A stretch of 64,000 nucleotides of DNA from a virus (IMGVR_UViG_3300042868_009121:1-64000), one strand, 5' to 3'; positions 9,157 through 63,573 are shown, counted from the first letter of the stretch. Notes: generated by a model not told the origin, from the sequence alone. Numbers and translations: made by a program.

Positions 9157-9315
9157 AGTCTGTTTATTATTTTATACCATAGCTTTCTTAATATGAGTCT
9201 TGTTATTTCCCATATTAATATTATGATTAGGACTTCTTGTAGTGTAGTTTCTGGCATATTTGTATTTATGGTATTTTTTAGGCCCTCTCGGAAAGTGCCC
9301 TACCCGCGGCCGCGC

Positions 9316-9913: not shown

Positions 9914-9923
9914 AGTTATAGTA

Positions 9924-10142: not shown

Positions 10143-10488
10143 AACTCTTTATTTAATAGTTGAATACATTTTTATCTTTGACATTTTATTTACTTCTTCT
10201 ATTAACTTATTGATAGTTATTTTCCATTCTTGATATTCCTTCTTCTTTCTTTTATCAGGCATATCAGTAAACATTTCTTCTATACGATCTACTAGATCAA
10301 CTACGTTAGGCATTAACTTGTTTTTTATTTGTTAGAATTTCTTGACATGTTTTAAGTACATCTTTCCAATAAGACAAATACTTTGTTTCTGTATTGTCTT
10401 CTAATAAACTATTAACAACTTGAATACAATTCTCTCCATATCTTTCTACTAAGAAATTTGCTCTCTCTTTTACTGACATAGTTAATAA

Positions 10489-36497: not shown

Positions 36498-36732
36498 TGA
36501 GTTGTTGTTTTGTTGTATATGTTATATTTGTTCCTGATGGTAATGAAGTGACGTCTGTTCTCCCAGATGCATTTAGAAAACCAGTCCCACCTACTCCTAT
36601 AGAAAAGCTTTTGTTATCAGATACTTTTTCTAGAACTTCTTTTATTCTATCCCATTGTTTAGGTGTAGGAGCAAAGTCATTACAAGCTTCTACAAATCCT
36701 TTTAACCATATTGTAAATTCACTTGATGTCAT
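36490..36732 (-). CDS. conserved phage hypothetical protein
   Basis: FTIWLKGFVE..PTPKQWDRIKE pattern. Confidence 0.6.
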   Translation of the reverse strand: MTSSEFTIWLKGFVEACNDFAPTPKQWDRIKEVLEKVSDNKSFSIGVGGTGFLNASGRTDVTSLPSGTNITYTTKQQLND

Positions 36733-38036
36733 TAGTCTACTTTTTTAAGTTTAGGAAGTTCAATCTTCTTTAATTGAGGAAGTTGTAGTCCTACTTGTTT
36801 TGGTATTCTATCTAAATAGCTAGCAAGTAAGTTTTTCATTTCATCAAATGAGAATTTAGTTTTAGATATATGAGACTGTCGTTTAGCAAATTCTTCATAT
36901 TTAGAATATTTTTCATAAACATTTTTTAGGTAAGCACTTGCCTCATTAATATCTGGACTAAACCACATAGACTCTGCCAATATCATATTTTGTACTTGGG
37001 CAGATGGATGAACATTTTTTAATTCTCCGCCAATTAAACAACAGAATTCACGATCAAGAAAATCTATATGTCCAGACCAAGCAGATACTATAATTGGTTT
37101 TTTACTAAGTGTAAACTCTAATAAAGGTCTACCAAATCCTTCACCTTTAGTTAGATTAAACATTGCTTTAACTTTAGGATGGTTGTAAAGATTGTTAATA
37201 TCTTTATCATCTAATTCACCATGAAGTAAATATACACTAGGTAAATCTCCATCAACTGTATTTTTAATAGCATCTATCTTTTTAAGCATTTCATCACGGT
37301 CCATTATACTAGATCCTGCACCAGATGTTTTCATTATTAATGCAGGTTTATTTTTTTTACCTTTAAATGTTTCTAGAAATGTTTTTAGCATTAAGCTAGT
37401 ATTTTTTCTATCTTCACCAATTTCTCCTTGAAGCCAATGTCCTACATATAGAAAACAAAACTCTTCTTTGATTTCGTCTAATTCAAGCACTACGTCTGTT
37501 TCTTCAAGATCTTCATCTTCAATATGAAAGTATTTATTTAAATCTACTCCTTCAAATAAAACTTCAACTGGCTTTTCAAGTTTCACTACTCCAAGAACTT
37601 GATTTTGTTGATCTCTTTTTTCAAATGTAGATTGTTGAAATACTTTTTTAGAGTGTTCTGAAGATACTAAAGTTATGTTCATTCTATTAACTCCTTCAAT
37701 CCAACTAGGATCACAAATTGTTGTTTCAATACCTGCGGTTAAACCTATATTATACTTTCCTATAGATTGAAATTCGTTTGGTACAGTGATTTGAATCCAA
37801 ATATCTGGTTGTCTTGGTAATTGAGGAACTTGTAGAATTAAAGGTTCTAACCAACTATATTCTTGTTTATTGTCTTTAATATATCCCCAAGGAGTAACTC
37901 CCCAACGTTGAGATATGATTTTAATATCATACTCTTCTTTTTTTAATTCATATAGAGCTTTAACAAAGTCTCTAGATCTAGCACCATAACCTGAATACGT
38001 GTCAATAGGACAACTAATTACGCACAACTGTTTCAT
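36732..38036 (-). CDS. GT4-family glycosyltransferase
   Basis: SGYG, RKN, GEGFGRPLLE, WSGHIDF. Confidence 0.85.
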   Translation of the reverse strand: MKQLCVISCPIDTYSGYGARSRDFVKALYELKKEEYDIKIISQRWGVTPWGYIKDNKQEYSWLEPLILQVPQLPRQPDIWIQITVPNEFQSIGKYNIGLTAGIETTICDPSWIEGVNRMNITLVSSEHSKKVFQQSTFEKRDQQNQVLGVVKLEKPVEVLFEGVDLNKYFHIEDEDLEETDVVLELDEIKEEFCFLYVGHWLQGEIGEDRKNTSLMLKTFLETFKGKKNKPALIMKTSGAGSSIMDRDEMLKKIDAIKNTVDGDLPSVYLLHGELDDKDINNLYNHPKVKAMFNLTKGEGFGRPLLEFTLSKKPIIVSAWSGHIDFLDREFCCLIGGELKNVHPSAQVQNMILAESMWFSPDINEASAYLKNVYEKYSKYEEFAKRQSHISKTKFSFDEMKNLLASYLDRIPKQVGLQLPQLKKIELPKLKKVD

Positions 38037-38037
38037 A

Positions 38038-39480
38038 TTAATAAACTAAAGGGTGTACAATTTTTTTTCTTTCTAATTTTTCTGTCTTAATTAAATCAAA
38101 CTGTTTTTTAGGTTTGAATGTATCAATAGTTTCATTTATAGTAGATATAACATTATCACACATATGAGCTGCGCTCATCATAGATTCATTAGATAATACC
38201 CACTCTCTAGCTGACATACCTTTTCTACTTCTTTCATCAGGAGATAAATTATAACAATCTTCAATTGCTTTAGCAACATCTCTAAAATCACATCTATCAT
38301 CATAAATGTAAGGAGTAGGTATAGATCCTACAATACTAATATTAGTAGGAAATACTGGTAACGCCCATTCTCCATGGTTTTTATATTTGCCAAAATGATT
38401 TGAACAGAATTTATCATTGAAGTCAATCCACTTACCATCTTCATCTTCAAATCTCATTTGATCTTGCATTCCTCCTGTAACATTAGCTATAATCATTCTA
38501 CCTGCCATCATAGATTCTGTTAAAGATAATCCCCAACCTTCATTAGATGAAATTAAAGCAGTCACATCAGACATGTTATAAAGCAAGTTTATTTCTTCTG
38601 CATTAAGTCTTGCATCTGAGAAATATACTTTTTGATATTCTGGATTACATATTAAATCTACTACTGCATTTAAGTCAGTTCCATTTTCATCTGCTCTTTG
38701 AGTATGCATTAATAGGGCACATTTGCTAGCCTTTTCTTTTCCTATCTTATCACAGAACATTGCATACGCGGCAATTAAATCAGAAGTACATTTTCTTCTA
38801 ATATTTCTGGCATTATAGAATACTACGAACTCAGGTTTAAAATCACCGAATATTTCTTTTTTCTTTTTTTCTAAAGCCTCATTCTGATTTTGCATAAATT
38901 CAGTAATAGGATAGAATATCTTTTCATTAATTCCATGAGGAACGTATTTAAGAATTTTTCCTTTTACTTTATCTCCTAATACCATTCTATTAATATTAAG
39001 AGTTTGCTTTGATATAGCCATTAAAGTATCACAAGAGTCATAAAATGATTCATTGTATAATGGAGCAGGAAGATCATCCCAAATATTTAAATACACCATA
39101 GGTATTTTTTTCCTAATCTCATTTTCCATTTGAAATAACCAAACCCAATATCTAGGATCTGTAAAAAAGAAAATAGCATCCGGCTTTTCTATTTCAATTA
39201 ATTGTCTAATTAATTCAGGACTTCCATACCCATTAGTAGGATAAATAAAAACAGAAGAATCATTTATGCCCATGATTCTATTTGTATCAGTAGATATGTC
39301 TAACTTTTTTCCTTGATCAGGATGATTAATTGCTCCACCTACATTTACCCAATTAAATACATGAGAACTTCCTACAACTATTTCTCTAGCCATTGTAGAG
39401 ATTCCGCTTGTCATTCTAATATCATCACATAGAAAAAGAATTTTTTTTCTTTGTGCTTGAGGAATATAACCATTTATCAT
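38038..39480 (-). CDS. GT4-family glycosyltransferase
   Basis: VPHGI, RNIRRK, NEGWGLSLTESM, TGGMQDQ. Confidence 0.88.
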   Translation of the reverse strand: MINGYIPQAQRKKILFLCDDIRMTSGISTMAREIVVGSSHVFNWVNVGGAINHPDQGKKLDISTDTNRIMGINDSSVFIYPTNGYGSPELIRQLIEIEKPDAIFFFTDPRYWVWLFQMENEIRKKIPMVYLNIWDDLPAPLYNESFYDSCDTLMAISKQTLNINRMVLGDKVKGKILKYVPHGINEKIFYPITEFMQNQNEALEKKKKEIFGDFKPEFVVFYNARNIRRKCTSDLIAAYAMFCDKIGKEKASKCALLMHTQRADENGTDLNAVVDLICNPEYQKVYFSDARLNAEEINLLYNMSDVTALISSNEGWGLSLTESMMAGRMIIANVTGGMQDQMRFEDEDGKWIDFNDKFCSNHFGKYKNHGEWALPVFPTNISIVGSIPTPYIYDDRCDFRDVAKAIEDCYNLSPDERSRKGMSAREWVLSNESMMSAAHMCDNVISTINETIDTFKPKKQFDLIKTEKLERKKIVHPLVY

Positions 39481-50568: not shown

Positions 50569-51168
50569 CTACTTCAATAAGCTATAATACTCTTTGAAAT
50601 GCTTGATTCTGTCAGGAAGACCTATGGTACCACCATTTACTCTTTTGGTAACTGAAGTAACTACAGCATCTGTAGCACCTTGATCTGCAATTTTATGAAG
50701 ACCATTTTTATGGAAAAACCATGCAGCAGAAAGTAGAGGATACTTTGTTGCAACTAAATCTGGATTATCAATGATTGATTCGGCTACTACTGCATCGAAT
50801 GCTTTATAATTATCTTTTCCGGTTAATTGAATATAGCCTCTGCCACGAAATCTATAACCCTCTCCAGAAGCTTCAGGGCCATTACCCATTCTAGCTCCAT
50901 AAACTAGATTAGCAATTTTTTCTGGCTTGCGCTCATACAATTTAGCTTTTTCTTCTGTTGGGAAATACTTCTTGAATATACTCAATAGACCTTTTGCTCC
51001 GTAATTTAAATTTTCGTTAACTGCTTTAAATCCACCGGATTCGTGGCCTGCTTGAGCAAGAAAATGTGCTAAACGAAGTGGAGTGTTTAATTCAAATTTA
51101 GCAATTGTGTCTGGTAGCTGTGTAATAACAGCATCAGGGATATGCCCTTTAAGTTTGCTTATGTCCAT
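50569..51168 (-). CDS. glycoside hydrolase family 19 endolysin
   Basis: AHFLAQAGHESGGF, ENLNY, FRGRGYIQLTGKDNY, SAAWFF, TKRVNGG. Confidence 0.9.
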   Translation of the reverse strand: MDISKLKGHIPDAVITQLPDTIAKFELNTPLRLAHFLAQAGHESGGFKAVNENLNYGAKGLLSIFKKYFPTEEKAKLYERKPEKIANLVYGARMGNGPEASGEGYRFRGRGYIQLTGKDNYKAFDAVVAESIIDNPDLVATKYPLLSAAWFFHKNGLHKIADQGATDAVVTSVTKRVNGGTIGLPDRIKHFKEYYSLLK

Positions 51169-51635: not shown

Positions 51636-52280
51636 TTAATTTATTTTAAATTTAAAGTTAGTTAATTTTTCTATTTCTTTTATATCTACTTCATTATTTT
51701 CAATTCCATCAGCTTTAGACTGATCATTATTAAATATATAAGCTTTCCATTCATTTTTGCTCTTTATATAAATAACTTTCCAACACTTATCAGGAACCGA
51801 TACTCTACCTATTTTTCTTTTTTCTCCTACTGAGCCTGTCCATACTTTAACTGAATCTAATGATTTAGCTAATTCTCTAGTACGCATTTCTAAAGTCTTC
51901 CAATCCCCTCTATTTAATTGTCCATATTGTGGAACCATATTAGAGAAATAAAAAGACTCTATCATAGCATCTTTACCAGAACACTGATTATCAGCTGCTG
52001 GAGCCATATGGCCACGATCAAAACCTGATTTGATATAATCACTAGCTAAATCGGTATAGGCGGCCAGAAGTGGGTCTGGTACAAATCTATCATGTCTTGG
52101 TATGGCTTTGTCACATTGAACCTTATTCTTTGTCACCCACCATTCAACTAGTACAGGATACTTTAAAGATTTTGAAAATACAGTAATATACTCTTTATGG
52201 AACAATCTCACTGTATCTTGTGCCTTTAATGACACACTAAGGAAAAGAACTATCGTTGTGGATAATAATGTTCTAAACAT
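51636..52280 (-). CDS. secreted DNA/RNA non-specific endonuclease (NucA/EndoG-like)
   Basis: Signal peptide; SGFDRGHMAPAAD, SNMVPQ..LNRGDWKTLE. Confidence 0.9.
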   Translation of the reverse strand: MFRTLLSTTIVLFLSVSLKAQDTVRLFHKEYITVFSKSLKYPVLVEWWVTKNKVQCDKAIPRHDRFVPDPLLAAYTDLASDYIKSGFDRGHMAPAADNQCSGKDAMIESFYFSNMVPQYGQLNRGDWKTLEMRTRELAKSLDSVKVWTGSVGEKRKIGRVSVPDKCWKVIYIKSKNEWKAYIFNNDQSKADGIENNEVDIKEIEKLTNFKFKIN

Positions 52281-52781: not shown

Positions 52782-53429
52782 ATGCCAGATTTACCAATAT
52801 CAGGATTACCAGCAGCAAATTTACCTTTAGATGGAACAGAATTATTTGCGACAGTTCAAGGAGGAATAACTAAATACTCAACATTAAATTCAGTAAACTA
52901 TATTCCTGGTAATAGCTATGGATTATATGCTCAAATAGTAAATAGCACTCCTGTAACTGCTACAACATCAGAATTATCTTTAATAAATAGTACTGATGGT
53001 ATAGGTACATTAACTGTTCCTGCTAATGGTTTTAGAGTCGGAGATAGTTTTAGAGCGGATTTTGGTGGTCAGTTTTCTTCTAAGAATAATGATACTATAA
53101 GAATTAGAGTTAAAACAGGAAATGTAATCTTAGCAGATAGTGGAGTACAAACTATGTCAGCAGCAGTTGATGACATTTGGCAACTCTCTATTAATTTTAC
53201 AATTAGAGAACTTGGAGCAGCAGGAGTAGCAGATATTGTTTCACTTGGTGTATTTCATACTACAAAACAATCTAACGGTGCTCCGCAAGGATTTGCTTTT
53301 AATACTATTAATAATACAACATTTAGTACTACAGTAACAAATGTTTTAGATGTTACAGCTCAGTTTAGTTCAAATAGTCCTTTAAATTCAATATTTACAG
53401 ACATATTCGTATTGAATAAAATCTATTAA
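52782..53429 (+). CDS. probable virion structural (fibre/decoration) protein
   Basis: MPDLPISGLPAA..VQGGITK N-terminus; T/S/G-rich beta composition. Confidence 0.55.
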   Translation: MPDLPISGLPAANLPLDGTELFATVQGGITKYSTLNSVNYIPGNSYGLYAQIVNSTPVTATTSELSLINSTDGIGTLTVPANGFRVGDSFRADFGGQFSSKNNDTIRIRVKTGNVILADSGVQTMSAAVDDIWQLSINFTIRELGAAGVADIVSLGVFHTTKQSNGAPQGFAFNTINNTTFSTTVTNVLDVTAQFSSNSPLNSIFTDIFVLNKIY

Positions 53430-54502
53430 TTACTTAAGGGAGCTTTTATTTTTGAATGCGATTGATAATTTATTAACTCAAAACAATCTGGTCTGTAACT
53501 TAGTATTTTTTCGCTAAATGTTTTTTCTCCAAGATGTTCTTTAACTGCTTCATGCATATACCAATTCCTTTCAGTTATTTGAACTTTAGGTAATTCATAT
53601 GGAGTTCTAGTAATTTGTTCTTTAGCTTGTTCAATATGGTTATTATACAAATGAACGTCACCTAAATTACCAATTAAATCTTCAGGCACCATGTTTACTT
53701 CTTTAGCAATAATCTCAAGTAGTAGTGCATATGAAGCAATATTGAATGGTAGACCAAGGAATGTATCTACTGAACGTTGATTCCACATTAGAGAGATTGC
53801 TCTTCTTGGAATGTTTCGTTGTTCTAAACGATTTATAGCTACATTATGTAAACCATCTGGCGGCCAGTCGTATTTGGCAATGCTATACCTTTCTTTTAAA
53901 CTCAACTTTCTCGTATAAACTTGAAAACCATAATGACAAGGCGGAAGTACCATTTGATTTAATTCACCTACATTCCAAGCACTAACCATTAATCTTCTAC
54001 TATCTGGATTTATTTTGAGTTCTGAGATTAGGTTTGCGATTTGGTCTACGTGTTCAGTACCTTTATAGAATACGCTTCTACTATTCCAGTTTCTCCATTG
54101 CTTACCATAGATTGGTCCTAACTCCCCCCACTGTTTAGCAAACTCATCATCTGTTTTTATTTTTTCTACAAATGCTTCTTCCTTTGTAACAAACGGACCC
54201 CAATCAATTTCGCCGTTATATTTTTCATAGTTCTTAATTGCATCACCATTCCAAATATGACAACCATTATCAACAAGGTATTTGATATTAGTATCACCTC
54301 TTAGGAACCATAGTAACTCTGTTACCATAGTTTTCCACGCCATCTTTTTTGTAGTTAGCAATGGAAAGCCTTCTTTCATATTGTGCCTAATTTGCCAACC
54401 AAAGATTGATTTAGTGCCTGTACCTGTACGGTCTTTCTTATCTATACCAAAATGTAAGATATGTTCTAATATTTCTTTATACTGACGGTCTATATTATTC
54501 AT
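53426..54502 (-). CDS. thyA: thymidylate synthase
   Basis: DRTGTGT, FPLLTTKK, LGPIYGKQWR, SRR, LPPCH, QRSVDTFLGLPFNIASY, HLYNNH. Confidence 0.96.
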   Translation of the reverse strand: MNNIDRQYKEILEHILHFGIDKKDRTGTGTKSIFGWQIRHNMKEGFPLLTTKKMAWKTMVTELLWFLRGDTNIKYLVDNGCHIWNGDAIKNYEKYNGEIDWGPFVTKEEAFVEKIKTDDEFAKQWGELGPIYGKQWRNWNSRSVFYKGTEHVDQIANLISELKINPDSRRLMVSAWNVGELNQMVLPPCHYGFQVYTRKLSLKERYSIAKYDWPPDGLHNVAINRLEQRNIPRRAISLMWNQRSVDTFLGLPFNIASYALLLEIIAKEVNMVPEDLIGNLGDVHLYNNHIEQAKEQITRTPYELPKVQITERNWYMHEAVKEHLGEKTFSEKILSYRPDCFELINYQSHSKIKAPLSN

Positions 54503-56138: not shown

Positions 56139-56786
56139 TTAGTTGAACATGTCGTAATGCCTAGGATAAACGTGTAGATTTGTAATAAACCAATGCATTT
56201 GACCTACTGGATAGCCTGTCTTTTCTGAAACTAATTCCATTAGTTTAGCAAATGTGTATTGGTCGTTACAGAAACCAAACACAAGATCAATGGATCTAGC
56301 AAAGACTGTAAGATGTAGTTTATCGTTTTTGATATAGAAATTAAGTACGTCATTACAAGGTGTATCATATTTGTATCTATCTATTTCGTGTAGAATATAA
56401 TGTACAACAATTGCTCGACGTGTTTCTTTATTTCTTTTTAGTTCGCTAATAACTTTGTTAAGTTGTTCATTATAATTCCAGAAGTATCCGTAATTAGAGT
56501 TTACCTCTGTAGTATATGGTATCATCATTTGGTTCCATATCTTAGCACGTTCTGCAATTTGTTTAGCATCTCTATCTCCTTTAACATACCATTCCCATTC
56601 ATATTCTGCATAATCTTGGTTAAACTTACGTCTAGGAGTTGTAATTACTTTATCTGCTGGATTATCGACTGTAAAAGAAACATTGAACTTAGCTTTAGTA
56701 TTAGCAAAGTCTTCACCTGTATCTATGATATAATGAAATAAGTTTTCAAATGCACTAGTAGGGGTCGAATAAATTTTATTGTCCAT
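56139..56786 (-). CDS. thymidylate-synthase-fold dCMP (hydroxy)methylase, T4 gp42-like
   Basis: VNSNYG, TRRAI, catalytic DTPCN, RSIDLVFGFCND (Asp at the position of the ThyA Asn), NLHVY. Confidence 0.75.
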   Translation of the reverse strand: MDNKIYSTPTSAFENLFHYIIDTGEDFANTKAKFNVSFTVDNPADKVITTPRRKFNQDYAEYEWEWYVKGDRDAKQIAERAKIWNQMMIPYTTEVNSNYGYFWNYNEQLNKVISELKRNKETRRAIVVHYILHEIDRYKYDTPCNDVLNFYIKNDKLHLTVFARSIDLVFGFCNDQYTFAKLMELVSEKTGYPVGQMHWFITNLHVYPRHYDMFN

Positions 56787-57243
56787 ATTGTTCTACTTGT
56801 ATAAATTGTGATAAAAAGTCTATGCCTTGAGTATTTCGATATACATTCAAATATACAACTTTTTTTATTCCTGATTGCAAAATAAGTTTAGAGCAGTCTA
56901 AACAAGGACTAAGTGTTAAGTACAAAGTGGAACCATCTACAGAGTTGCCTGTTTTTGCTGCTTTAAGAATGGCATTAACTTCTGCATGGATAACATGGGG
57001 CAGAGTGACATCATCTTTCTCACAAGTGTTGTCCATACCTGCAGGAGTGCCATTATATCCAAATGATATTATATTGCCATCTTTAACTAAAACTGCGCCG
57101 ACTTTTGATCGAACGCAGTGTGACAGAGTAGAAGTTTCCTTAGCTATGTTAATAAATACTCTGTTTAGTATTTTTTGCTTAAAGTCCTGTAGAACCGAAT
57201 CCACCTGAGCCTCTTTGTGTATTTCTGTTTGGTAATTCATCAA
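56776..57243 (-). CDS. dCMP deaminase (true start uncertain)
   Basis: KVGAV, GYNGTP, HAEVNA, TLSPCLDC. Confidence 0.9.
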   Translation of the reverse strand: MMNYQTEIHKEAQVDSVLQDFKQKILNRVFINIAKETSTLSHCVRSKVGAVLVKDGNIISFGYNGTPAGMDNTCEKDDVTLPHVIHAEVNAILKAAKTGNSVDGSTLYLTLSPCLDCSKLILQSGIKKVVYLNVYRNTQGIDFLSQFIQVEQYGQ

Positions 57244-57607
57244 CTTCTAATATATCTAGGTAACCAACTGGAATTAAAACGAACTGAACTAATTTTTGTC
57301 CTGTAACAATAGTTTGATCTTTATCAGATGTATTAATCATGTGGAGATGAACTTCTCCTTCATAGTCTTCATCTACTACGCAAGCACCTACTGATAGTCC
57401 TTGCTTAACAGCTACACCTGATTTATTAAATGCTACTAGAGCATAGCCTCTAGGAACTTGTACTCTAACACCTGATGGGATCAATACTGATTCACCTGGC
57501 TTTAGTATTGTAGTTTCAAAATCCTCAGGTACATAAAAATCAATTCCTGCTGATGCTTCTGTGCCCCTATTTGGGGTCTTTACGTTTCGTAACTTTTGTA
57601 TCTTCAT
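57179..57607 (-). CDS. dut: trimeric dUTPase
   Basis: SAGIDF, NKSG, VDEDYEGE, KLVQ, RGSGGFGSTG. Confidence 0.93.
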   Translation of the reverse strand: MKIQKLRNVKTPNRGTEASAGIDFYVPEDFETTILKPGESVLIPSGVRVQVPRGYALVAFNKSGVAVKQGLSVGACVVDEDYEGEVHLHMINTSDKDQTIVTGQKLVQFVLIPVGYLDILEVDELPNRNTQRGSGGFGSTGL

Positions 57608-57872
57608 TTTGAACATTGTTTTGATAATCATTTAGTGAAGCAATATACGCAACACAATCTAATAAATTGTCTTCTTTATGGTTGTAAGCTTGTCTTGATA
57701 ACTTTAATGCAATCATTGCGTTATACATATCAACTGCAGTTAGTTCTTTACGACTTAATAACGATGCAATTTTAGCTGCTTCTTGCATACCTTCTTGCAT
57801 TGGCCCATATTGACGGGCTTTCTCTTCAGATCTCTTGTAGATAATCTCGTTTGCTTGTTCTAGTATATTCAT
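57567..57872 (-). CDS. DUF6378-like all-alpha protein (possible dNTP pyrophosphatase)
   Basis: ILEQA..RQYG..MIALKLSR..HKEDNLLDCVAY. Confidence 0.65.
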   Translation of the reverse strand: MNILEQANEIIYKRSEEKARQYGPMQEGMQEAAKIASLLSRKELTAVDMYNAMIALKLSRQAYNHKEDNLLDCVAYIASLNDYQNNVQNEDTKVTKRKDPK

Positions 57873-57908
57873 GGAATAAATATAAAACAGAATTAATAAA
57901 TGGTAAAA

Positions 57909-58796
57909 CTATTCTCCTAAGTACTTAATAATATCAGACTTATCACCCCACTCTCTTTGAGAGTCTACATCACTTGGTTTAATTGTAGGCTTAGGCATAT
58001 TTCTAGCAACATTCCAGAACCAATTTCCAGAGTGACCATAACGTTTCATATAATCCCAACCTTTTGCATCATAGGTTTTGATACAATCAAATGGAGTATC
58101 GATGTCACAATCTTTAAGGAACTCTTTATGATACGCATAAAATTTAGCTCTACCTAATTCACCTGGTTGCACATTTCTTGCAACTGCTACTGCATTAAAT
58201 TTAGTATCTGGAAGTGCAATCTGAAGCGTTCTAGATAATACGCCTGTTGAGAATACACTCCACAATTCATCTATATTTTTATCTTTAAATGCTTCATGAA
58301 ATATCTTAACTCCGCCTGCTACAACTTGTTCATGTTTAAGACCGAATGGTAAATATTTTGCACCGATCTTTTTTGCAAAATCTTTTGCCCAACCATTAAT
58401 AGTAGGCATAGCAGGAGTTTTCAAGAATATAGGAGTCGCTCCATCTTCAATAACACGTAGTTGATGCTCAGATGCTTCTTTAGATGCTGGCATAAATAGT
58501 ATCAACTTTTTATTATACTTTTTAGCAAGATATGTTAATGAGTATGGAGCGTACCCTGTTCTAGGTGCAACATAAACTAAAGCATCTTCTTTTACTTGAC
58601 TAATCATAAAGTCTCCCATCTTTGCCTTACTACCATATTGAAACTCACCATCATCGATTATATTAAAACCTTCTGCTTGTTTTAATTTAAATTCAAAATC
58701 TGGTTTGTAGTTTTTCGTCATTTCAAGATAGTAGTTTAAATCTCTACCATCTGACATGTCTAAGTTAGATTGATCTGTTGCTTTGTTTATGAACAT
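57909..58796 (-). CDS. fold-type II PLP-dependent enzyme of the kind found in DNA-hypermodification clusters
   Basis: IIDD..GSK (PLP Lys), LVYVAPRTGYA, LPFGL, VFSTGVLSR, YDAKGW, FWNVA. Confidence 0.65.
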   Translation of the reverse strand: MFINKATDQSNLDMSDGRDLNYYLEMTKNYKPDFEFKLKQAEGFNIIDDGEFQYGSKAKMGDFMISQVKEDALVYVAPRTGYAPYSLTYLAKKYNKKLILFMPASKEASEHQLRVIEDGATPIFLKTPAMPTINGWAKDFAKKIGAKYLPFGLKHEQVVAGGVKIFHEAFKDKNIDELWSVFSTGVLSRTLQIALPDTKFNAVAVARNVQPGELGRAKFYAYHKEFLKDCDIDTPFDCIKTYDAKGWDYMKRYGHSGNWFWNVARNMPKPTIKPSDVDSQREWGDKSDIIKYLGE

Positions 58797-58798
58797 TT

Positions 58799-59485
58799 TT
58801 ATTTCTTTTCTTGAAGTTCTTTACTTAAATTACTAACCGGAACTGGTGTTCCTACAGGATATGGGAATCCTTCTTTAGCTGCAGTAATAGACGTCATTCC
58901 TGTTTTAACCGGAATAGCTTTACGTAGTGGAACTGCTGCTTCATTAAGTGGACCGTATACTTTTGCCAATACAATACCTGTAGATGTTGTATCAAAGATA
59001 ATTCCTGGCATAGCAAACATATTACTTTCACTTGTACTTGGATTATCAAGGTTTATAACAAATGCACGATTTACTGGAGGTAGTAATTCCCACTCTTTAG
59101 TTTCAGGATTAAACTGAGGTACTACCGTTGTTGAATCAAAATACCAGAATAGAGACCATGCTGTACCATTAGTTCCATCAGGAGTTTGAAAGTTTTCAGC
59201 TACATTGAATTTTCCATAAGTTCCACTAATGCCTTCCATTGCTAAATTAGAAATAGATGGTCCGTCTAATACAGGGCATATTGCACATCCTTCATCATAT
59301 TCAACTCCTTGAACGATAATCTTTTTTCCAGTAGGAATTGCTCCAGATGCACCGCAAAAAGCAAAAGATCCTTCGTGTACCTTTACTATTTTATCAAATT
59401 TAAGATCTTCAACTATCTCAGTGTTTGTCTTACAACTAACTAACATTACTAGTAGACTAACTACCATGAGTGCGCTTTTTTTCAT
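58799..59485 (-). CDS. lipoprotein of unknown function
   Basis: LVSC lipobox; additional Cys residues. Confidence 0.7.
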   Translation of the reverse strand: MKKSALMVVSLLVMLVSCKTNTEIVEDLKFDKIVKVHEGSFAFCGASGAIPTGKKIIVQGVEYDEGCAICPVLDGPSISNLAMEGISGTYGKFNVAENFQTPDGTNGTAWSLFWYFDSTTVVPQFNPETKEWELLPPVNRAFVINLDNPSTSESNMFAMPGIIFDTTSTGIVLAKVYGPLNEAAVPLRKAIPVKTGMTSITAAKEGFPYPVGTPVPVSNLSKELQEKK

Positions 59486-59496
59486 TTTTTTGTTTT

Positions 59497-60540
59497 TTAT
59501 TTTAATTTAATTGCGAAGTCATAATACTTGTCATGACCCCATGTTTGTTTAAGAATTGAATTATTTTTCATTCTATGACCATTATTTTTTATAATATGAT
59601 CTTCAGACTGATATTCTTGGAAATAACGAACCACGTCGCATGCTCTACTATCTTCACAATCAATTGGATTCAAGTTATACCTATTAGACAAGAATTGTAG
59701 TACTTCATTAATATACTCGAACTCTTTTACTTTAGGACTAACTTTAGGAAAAATAGCTTTAATACAACGAACTGCGTTTGTTCCTGCATATACCCAACCT
59801 TTAGGATTTACCATATTAGGAAAATATTCACCTAAGTCAGCAGCAAATGCAGTCAATACAAAGTTTTGTTTTTTAAATCCAACACTATTAAGATATTCAT
59901 TACCAATATCTGTTACTTGATAGATATCTAATCTTTTAGTAGTAACAGCTTCATAAATATGTCTAACTAAACCTTCTGAGTGTTCAAGAATAAAACGTCT
60001 TAAGTGTCCTCTAGTCTCGCCTTCAAAAGTGAATTGTGGAAGTAAGTATCCTTTATTATCTGTAAAAGGCGTGATGCGGTTTCTAAGGTCTTCTTTCCAT
60101 TCTGGCCATGTATATCTTTCTTTTAATATAGAATCTACAATCCAGAAATTACCGAAACCATGCGTACCCAGGATGTCCTTGATATGATCTGTTTTATATC
60201 TAGGTACGTAATTAATACCAGAACCACTTAGTCTAAATAAATAGAATAGCATAAACCAATCAAACTCATCTTTTATATCATGATGTGTAAAGTGATTACC
60301 CATTCCTCTTAAGTCTTTTTCTTTATACCATACGGCTTCAGTAAAAGCGCAGAATGCTGCAAATCTACGATGCGCAGTATCATAAATAGGCACATGATAA
60401 ATTAAATCGTCATTAACATCTGCAAGTAAGTCTCCATCATAAGGAAGCTTAAGACTACCATGTTGTTGCATTAATAAACTACGTTTATCGTATTCATCTA
60501 ATGCTTCAAGGAGTTTTTCGTTTATAATAAATTTAGTCAT
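59497..60540 (-). CDS. divergent amino acid:DNA transferase / aGPT-PPlase1-like protein
   Basis: C-terminal FVLTAFAADL..WVYAGTNAVRCI..PIDCEDSRACDVVRY parallels the family pattern F...E...DL..GPGA.RGL..D.E..LCE..KY; context next to the PLP and TS-like genes. Confidence 0.55.
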   Translation of the reverse strand: MTKFIINEKLLEALDEYDKRSLLMQQHGSLKLPYDGDLLADVNDDLIYHVPIYDTAHRRFAAFCAFTEAVWYKEKDLRGMGNHFTHHDIKDEFDWFMLFYLFRLSGSGINYVPRYKTDHIKDILGTHGFGNFWIVDSILKERYTWPEWKEDLRNRITPFTDNKGYLLPQFTFEGETRGHLRRFILEHSEGLVRHIYEAVTTKRLDIYQVTDIGNEYLNSVGFKKQNFVLTAFAADLGEYFPNMVNPKGWVYAGTNAVRCIKAIFPKVSPKVKEFEYINEVLQFLSNRYNLNPIDCEDSRACDVVRYFQEYQSEDHIIKNNGHRMKNNSILKQTWGHDKYYDFAIKLK

Positions 60541-60566
60541 ATATAAATGTATAAAAATTATGTTTA

Positions 60567-61247
60567 TTAATCAAATCTATCTTTGCAGTGATCAAAATGC
60601 CATCGCTGCATAGCATTGTATTGACCTATTTTTTTACAATATGGACACTCCACTTTTTTCCTATCTTTAGCTGATTCTGACATTTTAATTTTAGCTTCTT
60701 CTGATTTAGGTTTGCGCATCTTACTTATAGTATTTTTAGAGTGTTTTTTACCAAATCTCCAGTTTTTTTCTCCTATTCTAGAATTTGATATATTCAATCT
60801 ATGAGATTCAGAAAAAATCTTACCAGTATTAGGTCCTGGTTTGCCTATTTTAGCTTTTGACAGTTTCTTTTTATGATCTTCAGATAAAATTTTGCCTTTA
60901 TGAGAGATAGATATTTTTAATTTAGTTTCATAACTTACAACTTTTTCTCTCATTTTATTTTTACAATACTCATATACTCTAGAACTTGGTTTATATCTAT
61001 TTCCTTTCTCTGTAGGTATTATAGACATCATAGAAAAAGCATAAAATAGACTAGGATTATCAGGATATATTTCATGTAGTAACCAATGACATAAAAAATG
61101 TTCTCTTGCAGTAAGCTCTACTATATTATCTTTATCATTACAACCTCCAATACATTTAGGTATTATATGATGCTTTTCTTTATATCCTTCTACAATTCTA
61201 TTTTTAGCTCTGTATATAATTTGATCATATATTTTTTTATAATTCAT
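60567..61247 (-). CDS. free-standing HNH homing endonuclease with NUMOD3 repeats
   Basis: EKHHIIPKCIGG..LTAREHFLCHWLL; GKKHSKNT/SEDHKKKLS repeats; C-terminal CPYC..WHFDHC. Confidence 0.88.
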   Translation of the reverse strand: MNYKKIYDQIIYRAKNRIVEGYKEKHHIIPKCIGGCNDKDNIVELTAREHFLCHWLLHEIYPDNPSLFYAFSMMSIIPTEKGNRYKPSSRVYEYCKNKMREKVVSYETKLKISISHKGKILSEDHKKKLSKAKIGKPGPNTGKIFSESHRLNISNSRIGEKNWRFGKKHSKNTISKMRKPKSEEAKIKMSESAKDRKKVECPYCKKIGQYNAMQRWHFDHCKDRFD

Positions 61248-61258
61248 AAAAAAGAAAA

Positions 61259-61345
61259 TGGTCCAAAAAACAGAGGAGCTACTACCTTCCTAAGTTTAAA
61301 GGACCAATAAGTTTATTATAGAATGTTGGTAGTAGCAACTTTCTG
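61259..61345 (-). promoter_or_regulatory. structured (pseudoknot-capable) 5' leader of the HNH gene
   Basis: Interleaved complementary pairs 61278-86/61328-36 and 61259-64/61301-06; TATTTAT at 61352-58. Confidence 0.5.
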
Positions 61346-61358
61346 TCTATAATAAATA

Positions 61359-61589
61359 TCATAGTTTTTCTATTTCTTGTTTTACTTCTTCTAAATAATC
61401 CCAAACCTTTTTATCATAAAAACCTGCAAGTACTAATAGTTCGCCTATTGCTATTAATGCACATTGTTTAGCTTGTTTCCATGCTTTATATTCTTCAGAT
61501 ATACCTAAAGGCTCATTTATCCAAGCCTCATTAGGTGTTGTTTGGTAAAACTTATCTACTAATTCTTCTGCTTTTTCTTTTGGTGTCAT
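61359..61589 (-). CDS. MTPKEKA...EVKQEIEKL family protein
   Basis: Paralog of 62393..62647 and 2277..2486. Confidence 0.75.
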   Translation of the reverse strand: MTPKEKAEELVDKFYQTTPNEAWINEPLGISEEYKAWKQAKQCALIAIGELLVLAGFYDKKVWDYLEEVKQEIEKL

Positions 61590-61882
61590 TTATTATAAGT
61601 TTCATTGTAGTATTTAAAAAATGTTTGCCAATCTTCTTCAGCAATACCTTTTCCTTCAAATCTACCAGCTTGGTGAGCAGCTATCCAGCAATCTTCCATC
61701 TGCTCCATCTCCATTAATTTGGCTTGTTCAAATATCTTTTGCCACTCGAGAATATGTGGTTCACTTTTCAATAAAGTTTCAAAAAACCATTCTACTGCTG
61801 TTTGTTGTTTTGTTATTTGTGTAAATGTACCATACACAGGATAGCCATTTTCGTCTAGTGGATTGTCTGTTTGTCGTGCCAT
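61586..61882 (-). CDS. KQQTAVEW family small protein
   Basis: Paralog of 61855..62121. Confidence 0.7.
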   Translation of the reverse strand: MARQTDNPLDENGYPVYGTFTQITKQQTAVEWFFETLLKSEPHILEWQKIFEQAKLMEMEQMEDCWIAAHQAGRFEGKGIAEEDWQTFFKYYNETYNK

Positions 61883-62121
61883 ATTTTATCTTTAAATGTT
61901 TTATTATAATAATCTTCAAACGAATCACCATGACCTGTGTCTAACAATGCTAACATAGCGTGTTCATAACATGCTTTCATTTGCTCCCTCCCCATTGCTT
62001 TGGCTTTTTCAAATAAATACTCAAACAAAAACTGATTAGCCTCATACGCATTACCTATTTCTTTAGGAAACTTATTTTGTAATTCTATTAAAATCCAATT
62101 AACTGCTGTTTGTTGTTTCAT
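61855..62121 (-). CDS. KQQTAVxW family small protein
   Basis: KQQTAV.W..FEKAK.M.REQM..YYNKTFK. Confidence 0.7.
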   Translation of the reverse strand: MKQQTAVNWILIELQNKFPKEIGNAYEANQFLFEYLFEKAKAMGREQMKACYEHAMLALLDTGHGDSFEDYYNKTFKDKIWHDKQTIH

Positions 62122-62396
62122 ATATCATATGATTTAGGTGAAGGTAAGCCACTATAATGACAATCCAAACCATTAATCAACATCTCTGCAATATTCTTAT
62201 GTTTACGATCTATTTGATCATTTAGATTATCTATTCTAGTACTTAAATTATCCATGCTATTACTTAAATTATCTACTCTAGCATTTAAATAACCATGTAG
62301 AAATCCGTTAATCCAAAATCCTTTATCATTCTTATCACAACCATGACATCCTTCCCACTGGGTTTCAGCTAGTTGTTCTATTTCTTTTCGTGTCAT
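62118..62396 (-). CDS. WEGCxGC family small protein
   Basis: Paralog of 8241..8432; start MTRKEI. Confidence 0.7.
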   Translation of the reverse strand: MTRKEIEQLAETQWEGCHGCDKNDKGFWINGFLHGYLNARVDNLSNSMDNLSTRIDNLNDQIDRKHKNIAEMLINGLDCHYSGLPSPKSYDI

Positions 62397-62647
62397 AGTT
62401 TTTCTATTTCTTGTTTTACCTCTTCCCAATAAGATTTAGCCATTCTCCAATCACCACTATCAGACATTATCCCCATAGATAGTATTTCATCTACTGCAAC
62501 TAATGCATATATCTTAGCATGAATAACGGAATTAATTATTTGAATTGGAACTACTGTCTGTTCACCACTACTGTCTTCTATACGCTCAGTATGATATACA
62601 GTAAGAAACTTACTTACGAGTTGCTCTGCTTTTTCTTTTGGTGTCAT
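62393..62647 (-). CDS. MTPKEKA...EVKQEIEKL family protein
   Basis: Paralog of 61359..61589. Confidence 0.75.
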   Translation of the reverse strand: MTPKEKAEQLVSKFLTVYHTERIEDSSGEQTVVPIQIINSVIHAKIYALVAVDEILSMGIMSDSGDWRMAKSYWEEVKQEIEKL

Positions 62648-63573
62648 TTTACAAATTCGTTTGCGAACATATAATATTTAGGCTTCAAGTGTACTGATTG
62701 TTTAGGTTCCATGTATTCAAACATCTTCATTCCATCTTCATCAATCCATTCATTTGGCCATTGAAGTGTTTTAAGTCCTGAATTATTCATGATCCTATTT
62801 GCTGTATCTACCAATCTTGCTCTTTCTTGTCTTGTGCCAAAATAAGCTTGTTTTAGATATAAACCTGTACCAGGTAATTTACGACTTTCATGCTCAACTG
62901 GTAACAAATTAACTAGAGTTGCATTATTTAGTTTCTTAGCAAATTCTACATAACGTCTAATAAGATCTCCTACTGCTTCAGCAGGATTATCTTGCCTCAT
63001 TAAGTGAAAACGAATATCAATATTACCAAAGTAAAGAACTACTTCGTCATATTTTTGATTCCACTCTTCAATTAAAGAGTCGGCATCTTTTAAGAATCCA
63101 AACAAAGTTTTACCGTCTGTTCTATCAAGACCAAAACCAGGTCTCCATGCACTAAGCGAATGAGAATCACCTCTTACTAACTTCTTTGTATTATTTGCAT
63201 GTAGTCTAGCAAAGTCAATACAGTTGATTGCAGTAAACTGATGATCAATATTAAATCTTTTATTGAACACATTAAGATCAATAGGAACATTAACTGCAAT
63301 AGCTAAACCTTTATAATTAGCCATAGCTTCAAGCTTAGCTCTATGTTCAGGTTGTGGTCCTCCAATAAAATTGAATACGTTCTCTTGATAGTTAACTCCT
63401 TCTAGAATGTAGAGTCTTTCATATTCATTCCATGTTGAAGGATCTGGATTAACATCTAAATCTCCTGGGTGTTCTGATTTTAGTATGTTCAACATAACAT
63501 GATAATAGCCGCCGCCGTGATGGCTTTGGCTACTACCAACATTATTGAGCATACCTACTACGGCTGCTTTCAT
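62644..63573 (-). CDS. two-domain protein with C-terminal SGNH hydrolase/acyltransferase-like domain
   Basis: GDSH (block I), DGKT (II), FGNID (III), SVHL (V). Confidence 0.6.
   Translation of the reverse strand: MKAAVVGMLNNVGSSQSHHGGGYYHVMLNILKSEHPGDLDVNPDPSTWNEYERLYILEGVNYQENVFNFIGGPQPEHRAKLEAMANYKGLAIAVNVPIDLNVFNKRFNIDHQFTAINCIDFARLHANNTKKLVRGDSHSLSAWRPGFGLDRTDGKTLFGFLKDADSLIEEWNQKYDEVVLYFGNIDIRFHLMRQDNPAEAVGDLIRRYVEFAKKLNNATLVNLLPVEHESRKLPGTGLYLKQAYFGTRQERARLVDTANRIMNNSGLKTLQWPNEWIDEDGMKMFEYMEPKQSVHLKPKYYMFANEFVK

What the first reader, a model, noticed from the sequence alone, without database searches (positions are those of the whole stretch)
56139..63573. Candidate new DNA hypermodification pathway: amino-acid transfer chemistry coupled to a cytosine-type hydroxymethylase
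Seen: besides an intact ThyA, a second TS-fold gene reads RSIDLVFGFCND, whereas the window's ThyA reads RSVDTFLGLPFN. The same run carries dCMP deaminase, dUTPase, a DUF6378-like protein, a PLP enzyme (GSK), an amino acid:DNA transferase (AADT)-like protein and an SGNH protein. Known: Asn versus Asp at this position selects dUMP versus dCMP (T4 gp42 has Asp). AADT + PLP decarboxylase pathways are characterised for 5-hydroxymethyluracil in phages ViI and M6, where a DNA kinase activates the base first. Inference: here the same chemistry may decorate cytosine, giving an amine- or amino-acid-substituted 5-methylcytosine, while ThyA supplies normal T. No 5hm-pyrimidine DNA kinase is visible in the window.
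Basis: partly seen in the sequence, partly recalled or inferred. Interest (0 to 1): 0.85.

Follow-up and report, generated by a model that had tools for sequence, protein, structure and literature searches.

The report
Kinase-free cytosine DNA hypermodification gene module
A widespread group of uncultured phages carries a conserved gene set that probably makes 5-hydroxymethylcytosine and then attaches an amino-acid-derived group to it, chemistry so far known only for thymine and here lacking the usual DNA kinase.

Summary
The window holds a normal ThyA (53426..54502) and a second TS-fold gene (56139..56786). That paralog has the three residues that mark a T4 gp42-type dCMP hydroxymethylase: Asp at position 177, Asp at 143, and Asp kept at 169.

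It belongs to a module conserved in 79 viral contigs from five lineages. The members are DUF6378, a two-domain SGNH protein (p9, 62644..63573), an all-helical protein (p7, 59497..60540), a fold-type II PLP enzyme (p5, 57909..58796) and the TS paralog. A MazG or dUTPase-family gene, and often a dCMP deaminase, accompany them.

- **p7:** it matches no Pfam family. Its model is a helix-hairpin-helix glycosylase fold, with the AADT PaMx11 gp46 among the top three PDB matches. It keeps an invariant Glu-x3/4-Cys pair like the essential AADT pair.
- **p5:** it is homologous to the M6 gp52 decarboxylase family (hhalign 95.8%).
- **p9:** it is fused to p7 in eight database cluster representatives.
- **Kinase:** no 5-hmdU-type DNA kinase is found in the window or in two near-complete related genomes.

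Best reading (about 55%): post-replicative, amino-acid-derived hypermodification of 5hmC, with p9 replacing the kinase step. The product is unproven. No paper in the searched library describes it.

The parts
56139..56786 (-). TS-fold paralog, predicted dCMP hydroxymethylase (5hm-dCMP synthase), 215 aa
   Evidence: PF00303 E 4.7e-27. Best PDB hit is T4 gp42, 1b49, E 6.5e-18. Cys146 is present, Leu143 is replaced by Asp, Asp169 is kept and Asn177 is replaced by Asp, in the window and in all module copies. The criteria come from PMC13326640. It scores far below the NCBIfam thymidylate synthase cut-offs.
56776..57243 (-). dCMP deaminase
   Evidence: PF00383 E 3.1e-26, phrog_174 E 1.7e-53. It lies next to the module in 42 of 79 loci.
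57179..57631 (-). dUTPase-family dNTP pyrophosphatase; a possible dCTPase role is inferred
   Evidence: PF00692 E 6.8e-25. It occurs in lineages A and D. Lineages B, C and E carry a MazG-like gene at the module instead.
57567..57872 (-). DUF6378 protein, conserved module member of unknown function
   Evidence: PF19905 E 2.3e-12. It lies by the module in 72 of 79 loci across all five lineages.
57909..58796 (-). p5: fold-type II PLP enzyme of the M6 gp52 type, a predicted decarboxylase of a DNA-linked amino acid
   Evidence: phrog_7093 E 3.6e-27. Homologs carry PF00291. hhalign against the M6 gp52 family gives 95.8%, E 8e-9, over 223 columns. Invariant Lys57 aligns with the gp52 Schiff-base lysine, and both share the C-terminal YDxKxW...FWN motif.
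58799..59485 (-). Lipoprotein-like gene (signal peptide ending LVSC); a variable insert, not a core member
   Evidence: It matches no family. It is present in only part of lineage A and absent from the 98%-identical loci L001 and L040.
59497..60540 (-). p7: AADT-like enzyme with a helix-hairpin-helix glycosylase fold, from a new family without Pfam coverage
   Evidence: The AlphaFold model has pLDDT 93.5. The top 14 VIA matches are all from the HhH-GPD superfamily, including PaMx11 gp46/PUGT at Z 8.6, rmsd 4.5 over 209 residues. Glu296 and Cys301 are invariant in 59 of 59 diverse members. They match the essential E-T-x-x-C of M6 gp51 and E-T-S-G-A-C of ViI gp247.
60567..61247 (-). HNH/NUMOD3 homing endonuclease, a mobile insertion between p9 and p7
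   Evidence: PF07460 E 4.4e-14, phrog_655 E 3e-55. It is absent from most relatives, where p9 abuts p7.
61359..62647 (-). Five small ORFs of unknown function that lie in the same window-specific stretch as the HNH gene
   Evidence: They are shared only with L004 (92-100% identity for four of them, 55% for the fifth). They are absent from L001 and L040.
62644..63573 (-). p9: two-domain protein with an unknown N-terminal alpha/beta domain (about residues 1-115) and an SGNH domain (about 120-307); the obligate partner of p7
   Evidence: The model has pLDDT 88.5. SGNH fold matches have Foldseek probability 1.0 and VIA Z up to 12.3, and include the O-acetyltransferases PatB and OatA. GDSH (Ser137), GNID (Asn184) and His295 are invariant in 30 of 30 sequences. 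It is fused N-terminally to p7 in 8 of 8 long cluster representatives and in L078.
53426..54502 (-). Canonical ThyA (358 aa, with insertions), which supplies normal dTMP
   Evidence: PF00303 E 1.2e-93. It has Asn177 (RSVDTFLGLPFN) and Leu143 (LPPC).

Best explanation
The genes form a phage pathway that replaces cytosine with a hypermodified 5-methylcytosine derivative carrying an amino-acid-derived group.

1. **5hmC supply (inferred from signature residues).** The TS paralog turns dCMP into 5-hydroxymethyl-dCMP. The dUTPase-family or MazG enzyme and the dCMP deaminase shape the nucleotide pools, and ThyA keeps thymine normal. 5hmC is then polymerised into DNA.
2. **Activation (inferred, weakest step).** The SGNH protein p9 works with p7, and is fused to it in many relatives. 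It takes the place of the 5-hmdU DNA kinase of the thymidine pathways. The most likely way is to esterify the 5-hydroxymethyl group so that it can leave.
3. **Transfer (inferred from fold and invariant residues).** p7 flips the base out. Cys301 attacks C6, with Glu296 as the acid. This expels the leaving group and forms an exocyclic methylene, to which a free amino acid adds.
4. **Trimming (inferred from homology).** The M6 gp52-like PLP enzyme p5 decarboxylates the attached amino acid. The module has no radical-SAM isomerase. The amino acid must therefore be linked through its side chain, as serine is in phage ViI. That would give a product such as 5-(2-aminoethoxy)methylcytosine.

The result would be DNA that resists host restriction.
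For: - **TS paralog:** best PDB hit is T4 gp42. All module copies have the Asp143/Asp169/Asp177 signature. M6 and SPO1-like dUMP hydroxymethylases have Asn177, and the RB69 5hoC synthase has Asn169 (criteria).
- **Module conservation:** DUF6378, p9, p7, p5 and the TS gene keep one order and often overlap. They occur in 79 IMG/VR loci from five lineages, with p7 identity falling to 50%.
- **p7 fold:** every one of the top 14 of 48,161 chains belongs to the HhH-GPD superfamily, and AADT PUGT scores Z 8.6.
- **p7 residues:** Glu296 and Cys301 are invariant in 59 of 59 members. Their E-D-V-x-C spacing equals E243-T-V-L-C247 of M6 gp51. Both residues are essential in M6 gp51 and ViI gp247.
- **p5:** hhalign gives 95.8% against the gp52 family, with the Schiff-base lysine aligned.
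- **p9-p7 fusions:** found in 8 of 8 long cluster representatives.
- **p9:** the SGNH catalytic residues are invariant.
- **Kinase families absent:** the HMUDK families are missing from a 95%-complete relative and a 98%-complete relative, while the M6 and ViI controls are found.
- **p9 in cultured phages:** p9-like genes occur in phages that encode a gp42-type enzyme (Aeromonas phage 31) or a 5hoC-type TS homolog (Tenacibaculum PTm5).
- **Host genomes:** no p7 relative was found in 185,579 prokaryote genomes.
Against: - p7 has no detectable sequence similarity to Pfam ADDT or to a 32-sequence AADT profile.
- The fold score of about Z 9 is middling for a helical protein. The nucleotide hydrolase Qng1/DUF2419 scores as high (Z 9.0), so action on free nucleotides is not excluded.
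- The Glu/Cys correspondence rests on motif and position, not on a residue-level superposition.
- p5 is only about 17% identical to gp52, and its nearest PDB sequences are cysteine synthases. It could therefore catalyse beta-replacement rather than decarboxylation.
- No acyl donor is known for p9, and its N-terminal domain is unassigned.
- In Tenacibaculum phage PTm5 a p9-like gene sits among ribonucleotide reductase genes without p7.
- The TS tree does not resolve a clade with T4 gp42.
- No chemical data exist.
Confidence: 0.55

Rival explanations
1. The same enzymes act before replication on free nucleotides. 5hm-dCMP is derivatised by p9, p7 and p5, and the finished nucleotide is then phosphorylated and polymerised.
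For: The best structural match of p7 is Qng1/DUF2419, which hydrolyses a nucleoside monophosphate (Z 9.0). The module sits among nucleotide-pool genes (deaminase, dUTPase or MazG, TS). A p9-like gene lies between ribonucleotide reductase genes in Tenacibaculum phage PTm5.
Against: Every characterised bulky pyrimidine hypermodification of this chemical type is built on the DNA polymer (PMC8989533; PMC13326640 abstract). Most of p7's fold relatives are DNA glycosylases, and one is the DNA-acting PUGT. The gp52 family acts on DNA. No dedicated dNMP kinase was found in the window.
Confidence: 0.15
2. The phage stops at 5hmC, or glycosylates it using the large sugar cluster at 19-40 kb. p9, p7 and p5 then do something else, such as counter-defence, DNA repair-like base excision or amino-acid metabolism.
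For: The window carries about 20 kb of NDP-sugar genes with three glycosyltransferases. p7 is not a sequence member of the AADT family. The glycosylase fold is compatible with base excision.
Against: The module is conserved next to the TS gene in all five lineages. A canonical glycosylase Asp was not seen among the invariant residues, whereas the AADT-type Glu/Cys pair is invariant. p5 is specifically related to a DNA-hypermodification decarboxylase.
Confidence: 0.15
3. The TS paralog makes 5hm-dUMP and the pathway decorates thymine, as in ViI and M6.
For: Every characterised AADT and PLP-decarboxylase pathway works on 5hmU. A dCMP deaminase and a dUTPase, both typical of hmU phages, are adjacent.
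Against: Position 177 is Asp in every module TS and Asn in the M6 and SPO1-like dUMP hydroxymethylases. Those two form a 99/95 clade that excludes the module TS. An intact ThyA is present. The 5-hmdU kinase families are absent.
Confidence: 0.05

Closest known systems
Thymidine hypermodification pathways of phages ViI, M6 and PaMx11 (5-HMUDK, AADT/clade-2 aGPT-Pplase and PLP decarboxylase; Lee et al. 2018 and 2021, PMC5889632 and PMC8989533)
   Same: Both use a pyrimidine hydroxymethylase of the TS family. Both have a helix-hairpin-helix-fold enzyme with an essential Glu/Cys pair and a fold-type II PLP enzyme of the gp52 family. In both, the genes are clustered and sometimes fused.
   Different: The predicted base is cytosine, not uracil. 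There is no P-loop 5-hmdU DNA kinase. An SGNH two-domain protein is the invariant, often fused, partner instead. The transferase-like protein is outside Pfam ADDT by sequence. No radical-SAM, FAD or acetyltransferase tailoring genes are present.
T4 gp42 dCMP hydroxymethylase system (gp42, cd, td, gp56)
   Same: Both have a TS paralog with Asp177 and Asp143. Both have a dCMP deaminase, a separate ThyA and a dNTP pyrophosphatase.
   Different: The module has no T4-type alpha- or beta-glucosyltransferase next to it. The follow-up genes are p9, p7 and p5. The TS paralog is shorter (215 against 246 aa) and only about 28% identical.
PaMx11 gp46 (PUGT, PDB 8z2m), 5-phosphomethyl-dU glycinyltransferase
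   Same: Both have an all-helical two-bundle glycosylase-like fold (Z 8.6, 209 residues aligned). Both have a Glu...Cys motif in the C-terminal part of the domain.
   Different: Sequence identity is 11% and there is no profile-level similarity. The FGPW...K glycine-binding motif of the M6 and PaMx11 clade is not conserved in the p7 family.
5hmC carbamoyltransferase system and 5-hydroxycytosine glycosylation (PMC8670742, PMC13326640)
   Same: These are other recently found phage routes that build on a C5-oxygenated cytosine made by a TS homolog.
   Different: They use different tailoring enzymes (carbamoyltransferase, glycosyltransferases). The 5hoC synthases carry Asn169, which the window's enzyme lacks.

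Membership tests
T4 gp42-type dCMP hydroxymethylase (TS superfamily) | Thymidylate synthase fold with the catalytic Cys146 | tested here: met
   PF00303 E 4.7e-27. The TPC motif aligns with Cys148 of T4.
T4 gp42-type dCMP hydroxymethylase (TS superfamily) | Asp at ThyA position 177 (dCMP rather than dUMP) | tested here: met
   RSIDLVFGFCND aligns with RSNDVVFGFRND of T4. Asp is present in all 9 module copies. Asn is present in ThyA and in the M6 and SPO1-like enzymes.
T4 gp42-type dCMP hydroxymethylase (TS superfamily) | Acidic residue at position 143 (hydroxymethyl rather than methyl product) and Asp169 kept (not a 5hoC synthase) | tested here: met
   DTPC, compared with DFMC in T4. Asp169 is present, whereas RB69 gp48 has Asn (criteria).
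T4 gp42-type dCMP hydroxymethylase (TS superfamily) | Forms a clade with characterised dCMP hydroxymethylases | tested here: inconclusive
   The 16-sequence ML tree is unresolved. Only the dUMP hydroxymethylase pair is supported (99/95), and it excludes the module TS.
Amino acid:DNA transferase (Pfam PF18724 ADDT, clade-2 aGPT-Pplase) | Sequence match to the family profile | tested here: not met
   No Pfam hit even at E 10. hhalign probability is below 1% against M6 gp51, ViI gp247 and a 32-sequence profile. Positive controls M6 gp51 and ViI gp247 match PF18724.
Amino acid:DNA transferase (Pfam PF18724 ADDT, clade-2 aGPT-Pplase) | [quoted passage not shown] | tested here: met
   The top 14 VIA matches are all from the HhH-GPD superfamily, with PUGT 8z2m at Z 8.6. 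The score is middling for a helical protein.
Amino acid:DNA transferase (Pfam PF18724 ADDT, clade-2 aGPT-Pplase) | Conserved essential Cys with a nearby essential Glu | tested here: met
   Glu296 and Cys301 are invariant in 59 of 59 members, with E-D-V-x-C in most. M6 has E243-T-V-L-C247, invariant in 32 of 32. ViI has E282...C287. Equivalence is by motif and position, not by superposition.
Amino acid:DNA transferase (Pfam PF18724 ADDT, clade-2 aGPT-Pplase) | Works downstream of a 5-hmdU DNA kinase encoded in the same genome | tested here: not met
   PF18748 and PF18747 are absent from G001 (95% complete) and G004 (98% complete). Both are found in the M6 and ViI controls. There is no Walker A motif in the window.
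Amino acid:DNA transferase (Pfam PF18724 ADDT, clade-2 aGPT-Pplase) | Transfers a free amino acid to the C5-methylene of a pyrimidine in DNA | not testable with these tools
   This needs an enzyme assay.
M6 gp52 / ViI gp226 PLP-dependent decarboxylase (fold type II) | PALP-superfamily homology with the Schiff-base lysine | tested here: met
   Homologs carry PF00291. Invariant Lys57 aligns with the gp52 lysine and with the cysteine synthase PLP lysine.
M6 gp52 / ViI gp226 PLP-dependent decarboxylase (fold type II) | Profile-level homology to characterised members | tested here: met
   hhalign gives 95.8%, E 8e-9 against a 15-sequence gp52 profile. ViI gp226 alone was not detected.
M6 gp52 / ViI gp226 PLP-dependent decarboxylase (fold type II) | Decarboxylates an amino acid attached to a DNA base | not testable with these tools
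   This needs an enzyme assay.
SGNH/GDSL hydrolase-acyltransferase superfamily | SGNH fold with block I Ser, block III Asn and block V His | tested here: met
   VIA Z up to 12.3 and Foldseek probability 1.0. Ser137, Asn184 and His295 are invariant in 30 of 30 sequences. The usual Asp three residues before the His is Gln or another residue here.

The most novel reading that the evidence does not exclude
This would be the first amino-acid-derived hypermodification of cytosine in DNA. It would be made without a DNA kinase. An SGNH enzyme, often fused to a new clade of AADT-like transferase, would activate 5hmC (and perhaps 5hoC) by esterification. The transferase would then add a side-chain-linked amino acid, which a gp52-like PLP enzyme decarboxylates to a cationic amine such as 5-(2-aminoethoxy)methylcytosine.
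Probability: 0.3. Interest if true: 0.9.

Novelty: new variant of a known kind. Interest (0 to 1): 0.8.

Why it matters
Amino-acid:DNA transfer is known only for thymine derivatives, and it always depends on a 5-hmdU DNA kinase. A cytosine version with a different activation step would add a new natural DNA base. It would also add a new enzyme family (p7, absent from Pfam) and a new job for SGNH enzymes on nucleic acids.

Such enzymes are useful for selective chemical tagging of 5hmC in epigenetic sequencing. They also help explain phage resistance to restriction and CRISPR.

The module is common: 214 IMG/VR stretches and 363 protein clusters. An unrecognised cytosine modification in these phages could also affect how their DNA behaves in sequencing, which was not tested here.

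Cultured relatives make part of the idea testable now. Aeromonas phages 31 and 44RR2.8t and Tenacibaculum phages PTm1 and PTm5 carry p9-like genes.

Tried and rejected
- **Nucleotide and protein searches against cultured phages:** megablast of the region and tblastn of p7 found nothing.
- **p7 by sequence:** Pfam, PHROG, NCBIfam and PDB sequence searches were all empty. Foldseek against the PDB gave no significant hit. Only the exhaustive VIA search gave a coherent list.
- **p7 against AADT profiles:** hhalign against M6 gp51, ViI gp247 and a 32-sequence AADT profile gave no similarity.
- **GFGxxW motif:** the resemblance of p7 to the AADT FGPW motif is not conserved in the wider p7 family, so I dropped it.
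- **p5 against ViI gp226:** not detected.
- **TS phylogeny:** too divergent to resolve.
- **p9 with p7 complex prediction:** no verdict. This is neither for nor against binding.
- **ESM Atlas:** a weak GDSL lead for whole p9 and nothing for its N-terminal domain.
- **DUF6378:** no second family and no informative paper.
- **Whole genome:** none is held for the window.
- **Tools unavailable:** Sample origin and expression could therefore not be examined.
- **Prokaryote genomes:** the scan found no p7 relative. The scan is pattern-based, so distant prophage copies could be missed.
- **APS-kinase-like gene:** a small P-loop gene in the 70-kb relative G004 was considered as a hidden DNA kinase. 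It is absent from G001 and G002, so it is not part of the module.

Full report
**The observation.** The window is low-GC (about 31%) phage-like DNA with nearly all genes on the minus strand. A six-frame motif search finds exactly two TS active-site motifs.
- RSVDTFLGLPFN lies in a 358-aa ThyA at 53426..54502 (PF00303, E 1.2e-93).
- RSIDLVFGFCND lies in a 215-aa paralog at 56139..56786 (PF00303, E 4.7e-27).

Downstream of the paralog on the coding strand come four genes up to ThyA. Upstream lie, in order:
- dCMP deaminase (56776..57243)
- dUTPase (57179..57631)
- DUF6378 (57567..57872)
- a 295-aa protein, p5 (57909..58796)
- a lipoprotein-like gene (58799..59485)
- a 347-aa protein, p7 (59497..60540)
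- an HNH/NUMOD3 homing endonuclease (60567..61247)
- five small ORFs (61359..62647)
- a 309-aa protein, p9 (62644..63573)
- a GroEL-like gene

**Conservation.** p7 has 363 metagenomic protein clusters, all unannotated. It has 214 confirmed stretches in IMG/VR, and 80 loci were fetched. Mapping the window's proteins onto these loci and clustering all neighbouring ORFs gave five lineages, with p7 identity from 98% down to 50%. All five share one core in one order: DUF6378, p9, p7, p5 and the TS paralog.
- p9/p7 occur in 79 loci, p5 in 76, DUF6378 in 72 and the TS gene in 62. The shortfalls are mostly truncated contigs.
- Genes often overlap by one base. In G004, for example, the coordinates are 8003-8923, 8923-9966 and 9966-10859.
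- The lipoprotein, the HNH gene and the five small ORFs are variable. The 98%-identical loci L001 and L040 have p9 directly abutting p7.
- A dNTP pyrophosphatase is always near. It is dUTPase-family in lineages A and D and MazG-like in B, C and E (PF03819), a complementary pattern.
- A dCMP deaminase is present in 42 loci.

**The TS paralog.** Its best PDB match is T4 gp42 dCMP hydroxymethylase (E 6.5e-18), with RSNDVVFGFRND aligned to the window's motif. A 2026 paper gives residue criteria in E. coli ThyA numbering (PMC13326640):
- Asn177 to Asp selects dCMP.
- Leu143 to Asp or Glu goes with hydroxymethyl rather than methyl products.
- Asp169 to Asn marks flavin-dependent 5-hydroxy-dCMP synthases.

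In my alignment the window's enzyme and eight module homologs have Asp143, Asp169 and Asp177, like T4 gp42.
- RB69 gp48 has Asn169.
- The M6 and SPO1-like dUMP hydroxymethylases have Asn177.
- The window's ThyA has Leu143 and Asn177.

The paralog scores far below all NCBIfam thymidylate synthase cut-offs. An ML tree is unresolved, except that the two dUMP hydroxymethylases form a 99/95 clade excluding the module enzymes. The paralog is therefore most likely a 5hm-dCMP synthase. This is inferred from residues, not measured.

**p7.** No Pfam, PHROG, NCBIfam or PDB sequence match exists, even at E 10. An AlphaFold model built from 31 sequences is confident (pLDDT 93.5) and all-helical.

Foldseek found nothing significant. 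An exhaustive alignment against 48,161 PDB chains gave a coherent list:
- Qng1/DUF2419, Z 9.0
- PaMx11 gp46 (PUGT), Z 8.6, rmsd 4.5 over 209 residues
- then AGOG, NTHL1, OGG, Mag1, AlkA and endonuclease III

All fourteen matches at Z 5 or above belong to the helix-hairpin-helix glycosylase superfamily. This is the fold class predicted and then solved for AADTs (PMC8989533, PMC11472151).

AADTs need a conserved Cys and a nearby Glu. Both are essential in M6 gp51 and ViI gp247. The Cys is proposed to attack C6 so that the C5 substituent leaves as an exocyclic methylene forms.
- In a 32-sequence M6-type family the motif E243-T-V/I-L-C247 is invariant.
- ViI gp247 has E282-T-S-G-A-C287.
- In 59 full-length p7 relatives from a 1.84-billion-protein library, ten positions are strictly invariant, among them Glu296 and Cys301.
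- Most of these relatives read E-D-V-x-C-D..RY, the M6 spacing. The window reads E-D-S-R-A-C, the ViI spacing.

Profile-profile comparison still finds no global similarity. p7 is therefore not a Pfam ADDT member, but it plausibly works like one.

**p5.**
- It hits phrog_7093.
- Relatives about 40% identical carry PF00291.
- A 20-sequence profile finds only cysteine synthases in the PDB, weakly, with invariant Lys57 on the PLP lysine.
- Against M6 gp52, hhalign gives 86.8%. Against a 15-sequence gp52 family profile it gives 95.8% (E 8e-9, 223 columns). Lys57 falls on the lysine the authors proposed for the aldimine, and both share the C-terminal PF.C...YD.K.W...FWN motif.
- ViI gp226 alone was not detected.
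- Other homologs sit inside or next to DNA-modification genes in Erythrobacter and Microcystis phages.

**p9.**
- The model (pLDDT 88.5) has a C-terminal SGNH domain. Foldseek probability is 1.0 and VIA Z reaches 12.3. The matches include sialate and xylan O-acetylesterases, TesA, and the peptidoglycan O-acetyltransferases PatB and OatA.
- GDSH (Ser137), GNID (Asn184) and His295 are invariant in 30 sequences.
- The N-terminal domain of about 115 residues is unassigned.
- All eight cluster representatives longer than 550 aa among the p7 hits are p9-p7 fusions, as is L078. This is strong evidence that the two act together.

**No kinase.**
- No ORF in the window has a Walker A motif.
- PF18748 and PF18747 are absent from G001 (162 kb, 95% complete, close relative), G002 (136 kb, 82% complete) and G004 (70.5 kb, 98% complete, lineage C).
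- Both families are found in M6 and ViI in the same searches.

**Cultured relatives of p9.** BFVD and tblastn find p9-like genes in 38 T4-like Aeromonas phages, 3 Tenacibaculum phages and 2 Stenotrophomonas phages.
- In Aeromonas phage 31, ORF233c (795 aa) is p9-like at residues 9-334 (E 7.5e-60). It continues into a helical region with a sub-threshold match to PF18723, the helical domain of 5-hmdU DNA kinases (E 0.0036). This is a lead only.
- That phage also has a gp42-type TS (RSNDAIFGYRND).
- Tenacibaculum PTm5 has a TS homolog with the 5hoC-synthase signature (RSNN...LD).
- p9-like enzymes thus travel with TS homologs that put an oxygen function on C5 of cytosine.

**Mechanism.** I propose the following steps.
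1. 5hm-dCMP is made and polymerised, as in T4.
2. p9 activates the hydroxymethyl group in place of the kinase, most simply by esterification.
3. p7 uses Cys301 and Glu296 to expel the leaving group and add an amino acid.
4. p5 decarboxylates the amino acid.

PLP chemistry needs a free alpha-amine, and no radical-SAM isomerase is present. The amino acid should therefore be side-chain linked, as serine is in ViI. Esters at the 5-methylene position of pyrimidines are known from nucleoside chemistry to be displaced by amines; this is from my own knowledge, not tested here. Step 2 is the least supported.

Rivals are action on free nucleotides, an unrelated role for p9, p7 and p5 with 5hmC left bare or glycosylated, and a thymine target.

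**Novelty.** Full-text searches found the thymidine pathways, 5hmC carbamoylation, TET-based and 5hoC glycosylation, but nothing on this module or on an amino-acid-derived cytosine base. Earlier first-stage notes of this scan flag the same stretch with the same idea. One recalled-motif note led me to compute the Glu/Cys comparison.

I rate this a new variant of a known kind. It is well supported as a conserved module. Its chemistry is still unproven.

Noticed in passing
window 19095-39480 (minus strand): A cluster of about 20 kb of NDP-sugar genes. It holds five 4,6-dehydratase/epimerase genes, a sugar C-methyltransferase (30903..32120), a DegT-type aminotransferase (34082..35443), an HMGL-like aldolase with an acetaldehyde dehydrogenase (22722..24568), a TPP enzyme (24565..26346), a GT2 (28271..29281) and two GT1-like glycosyltransferases (36732..39480). 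It could build an unusual branched amino sugar for DNA, virion or host-surface glycosylation.
   Followed up: partly
window 60567-62647: A window-specific stretch of about 2.1 kb (HNH/NUMOD3 homing endonuclease plus five small ORFs) separates p9 from p7. It is absent from the 98%-identical loci L001 and L040. Four of the five small ORFs recur in L004 at 92-100% identity.
   Followed up: partly
loci L044-L080; G004:10948-11550: A MazG-like pyrophosphatase sits in the module in lineages B, C and E. A dUTPase-family gene sits there in lineages A and D. The complementary pattern suggests one shared role, perhaps dCTP removal.
   Followed up: partly
L144 (Aeromonas phage 31, AY962392) 4309-8289: ORF233c fuses a p9-like region to a helical region with a sub-threshold match to the 5-hmdU DNA kinase helical domain (PF18723). 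The gene next to it is a phage-encoded sodium:solute symporter (PF00474, E 7e-53). The same phage has a gp42-type TS homolog.
   Followed up: partly
L145 and L150 (Tenacibaculum phage PTm5, AP019525): A p9-like gene (ORF-050) lies between ribonucleotide reductase genes. A TS homolog there carries the 5-hydroxy-dCMP synthase signature (Asn169, Asp177, Glu143). The family match contains one TAA stop.
   Followed up: no
L081 (Erythrobacter phage R6L gp1) and L082 (Microcystis phage Mae-JY30, 6968-7678): Homologs of the PLP enzyme p5 lie inside a large gene annotated 'DNA modification methylase', or next to two ParB-like genes. This PLP family may serve other DNA modification systems as well.
   Followed up: no
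window 53426-54502: ThyA is 358 aa long because of two insertions relative to the 266-position Pfam model.
   Followed up: no
window 45414-47663 and 48737-49852: A TonB-dependent-receptor-like beta-barrel protein (Plug plus OMP_b-brl_3) and a double-PAS protein are encoded in what looks like a phage genome. They lie near a GH19 endolysin (50569..51168) and an Endonuclease_NS gene (51636..52280).
   Followed up: no
L085 (Bacteroides phage BF503P2): The closest cultured-phage homolog of the TS paralog (44% identity) is in Bacteroides fragilis phages. These carry two TS homologs, both annotated as dCMP hydroxymethyltransferases, but have no p7, p5 or p9.
   Followed up: no
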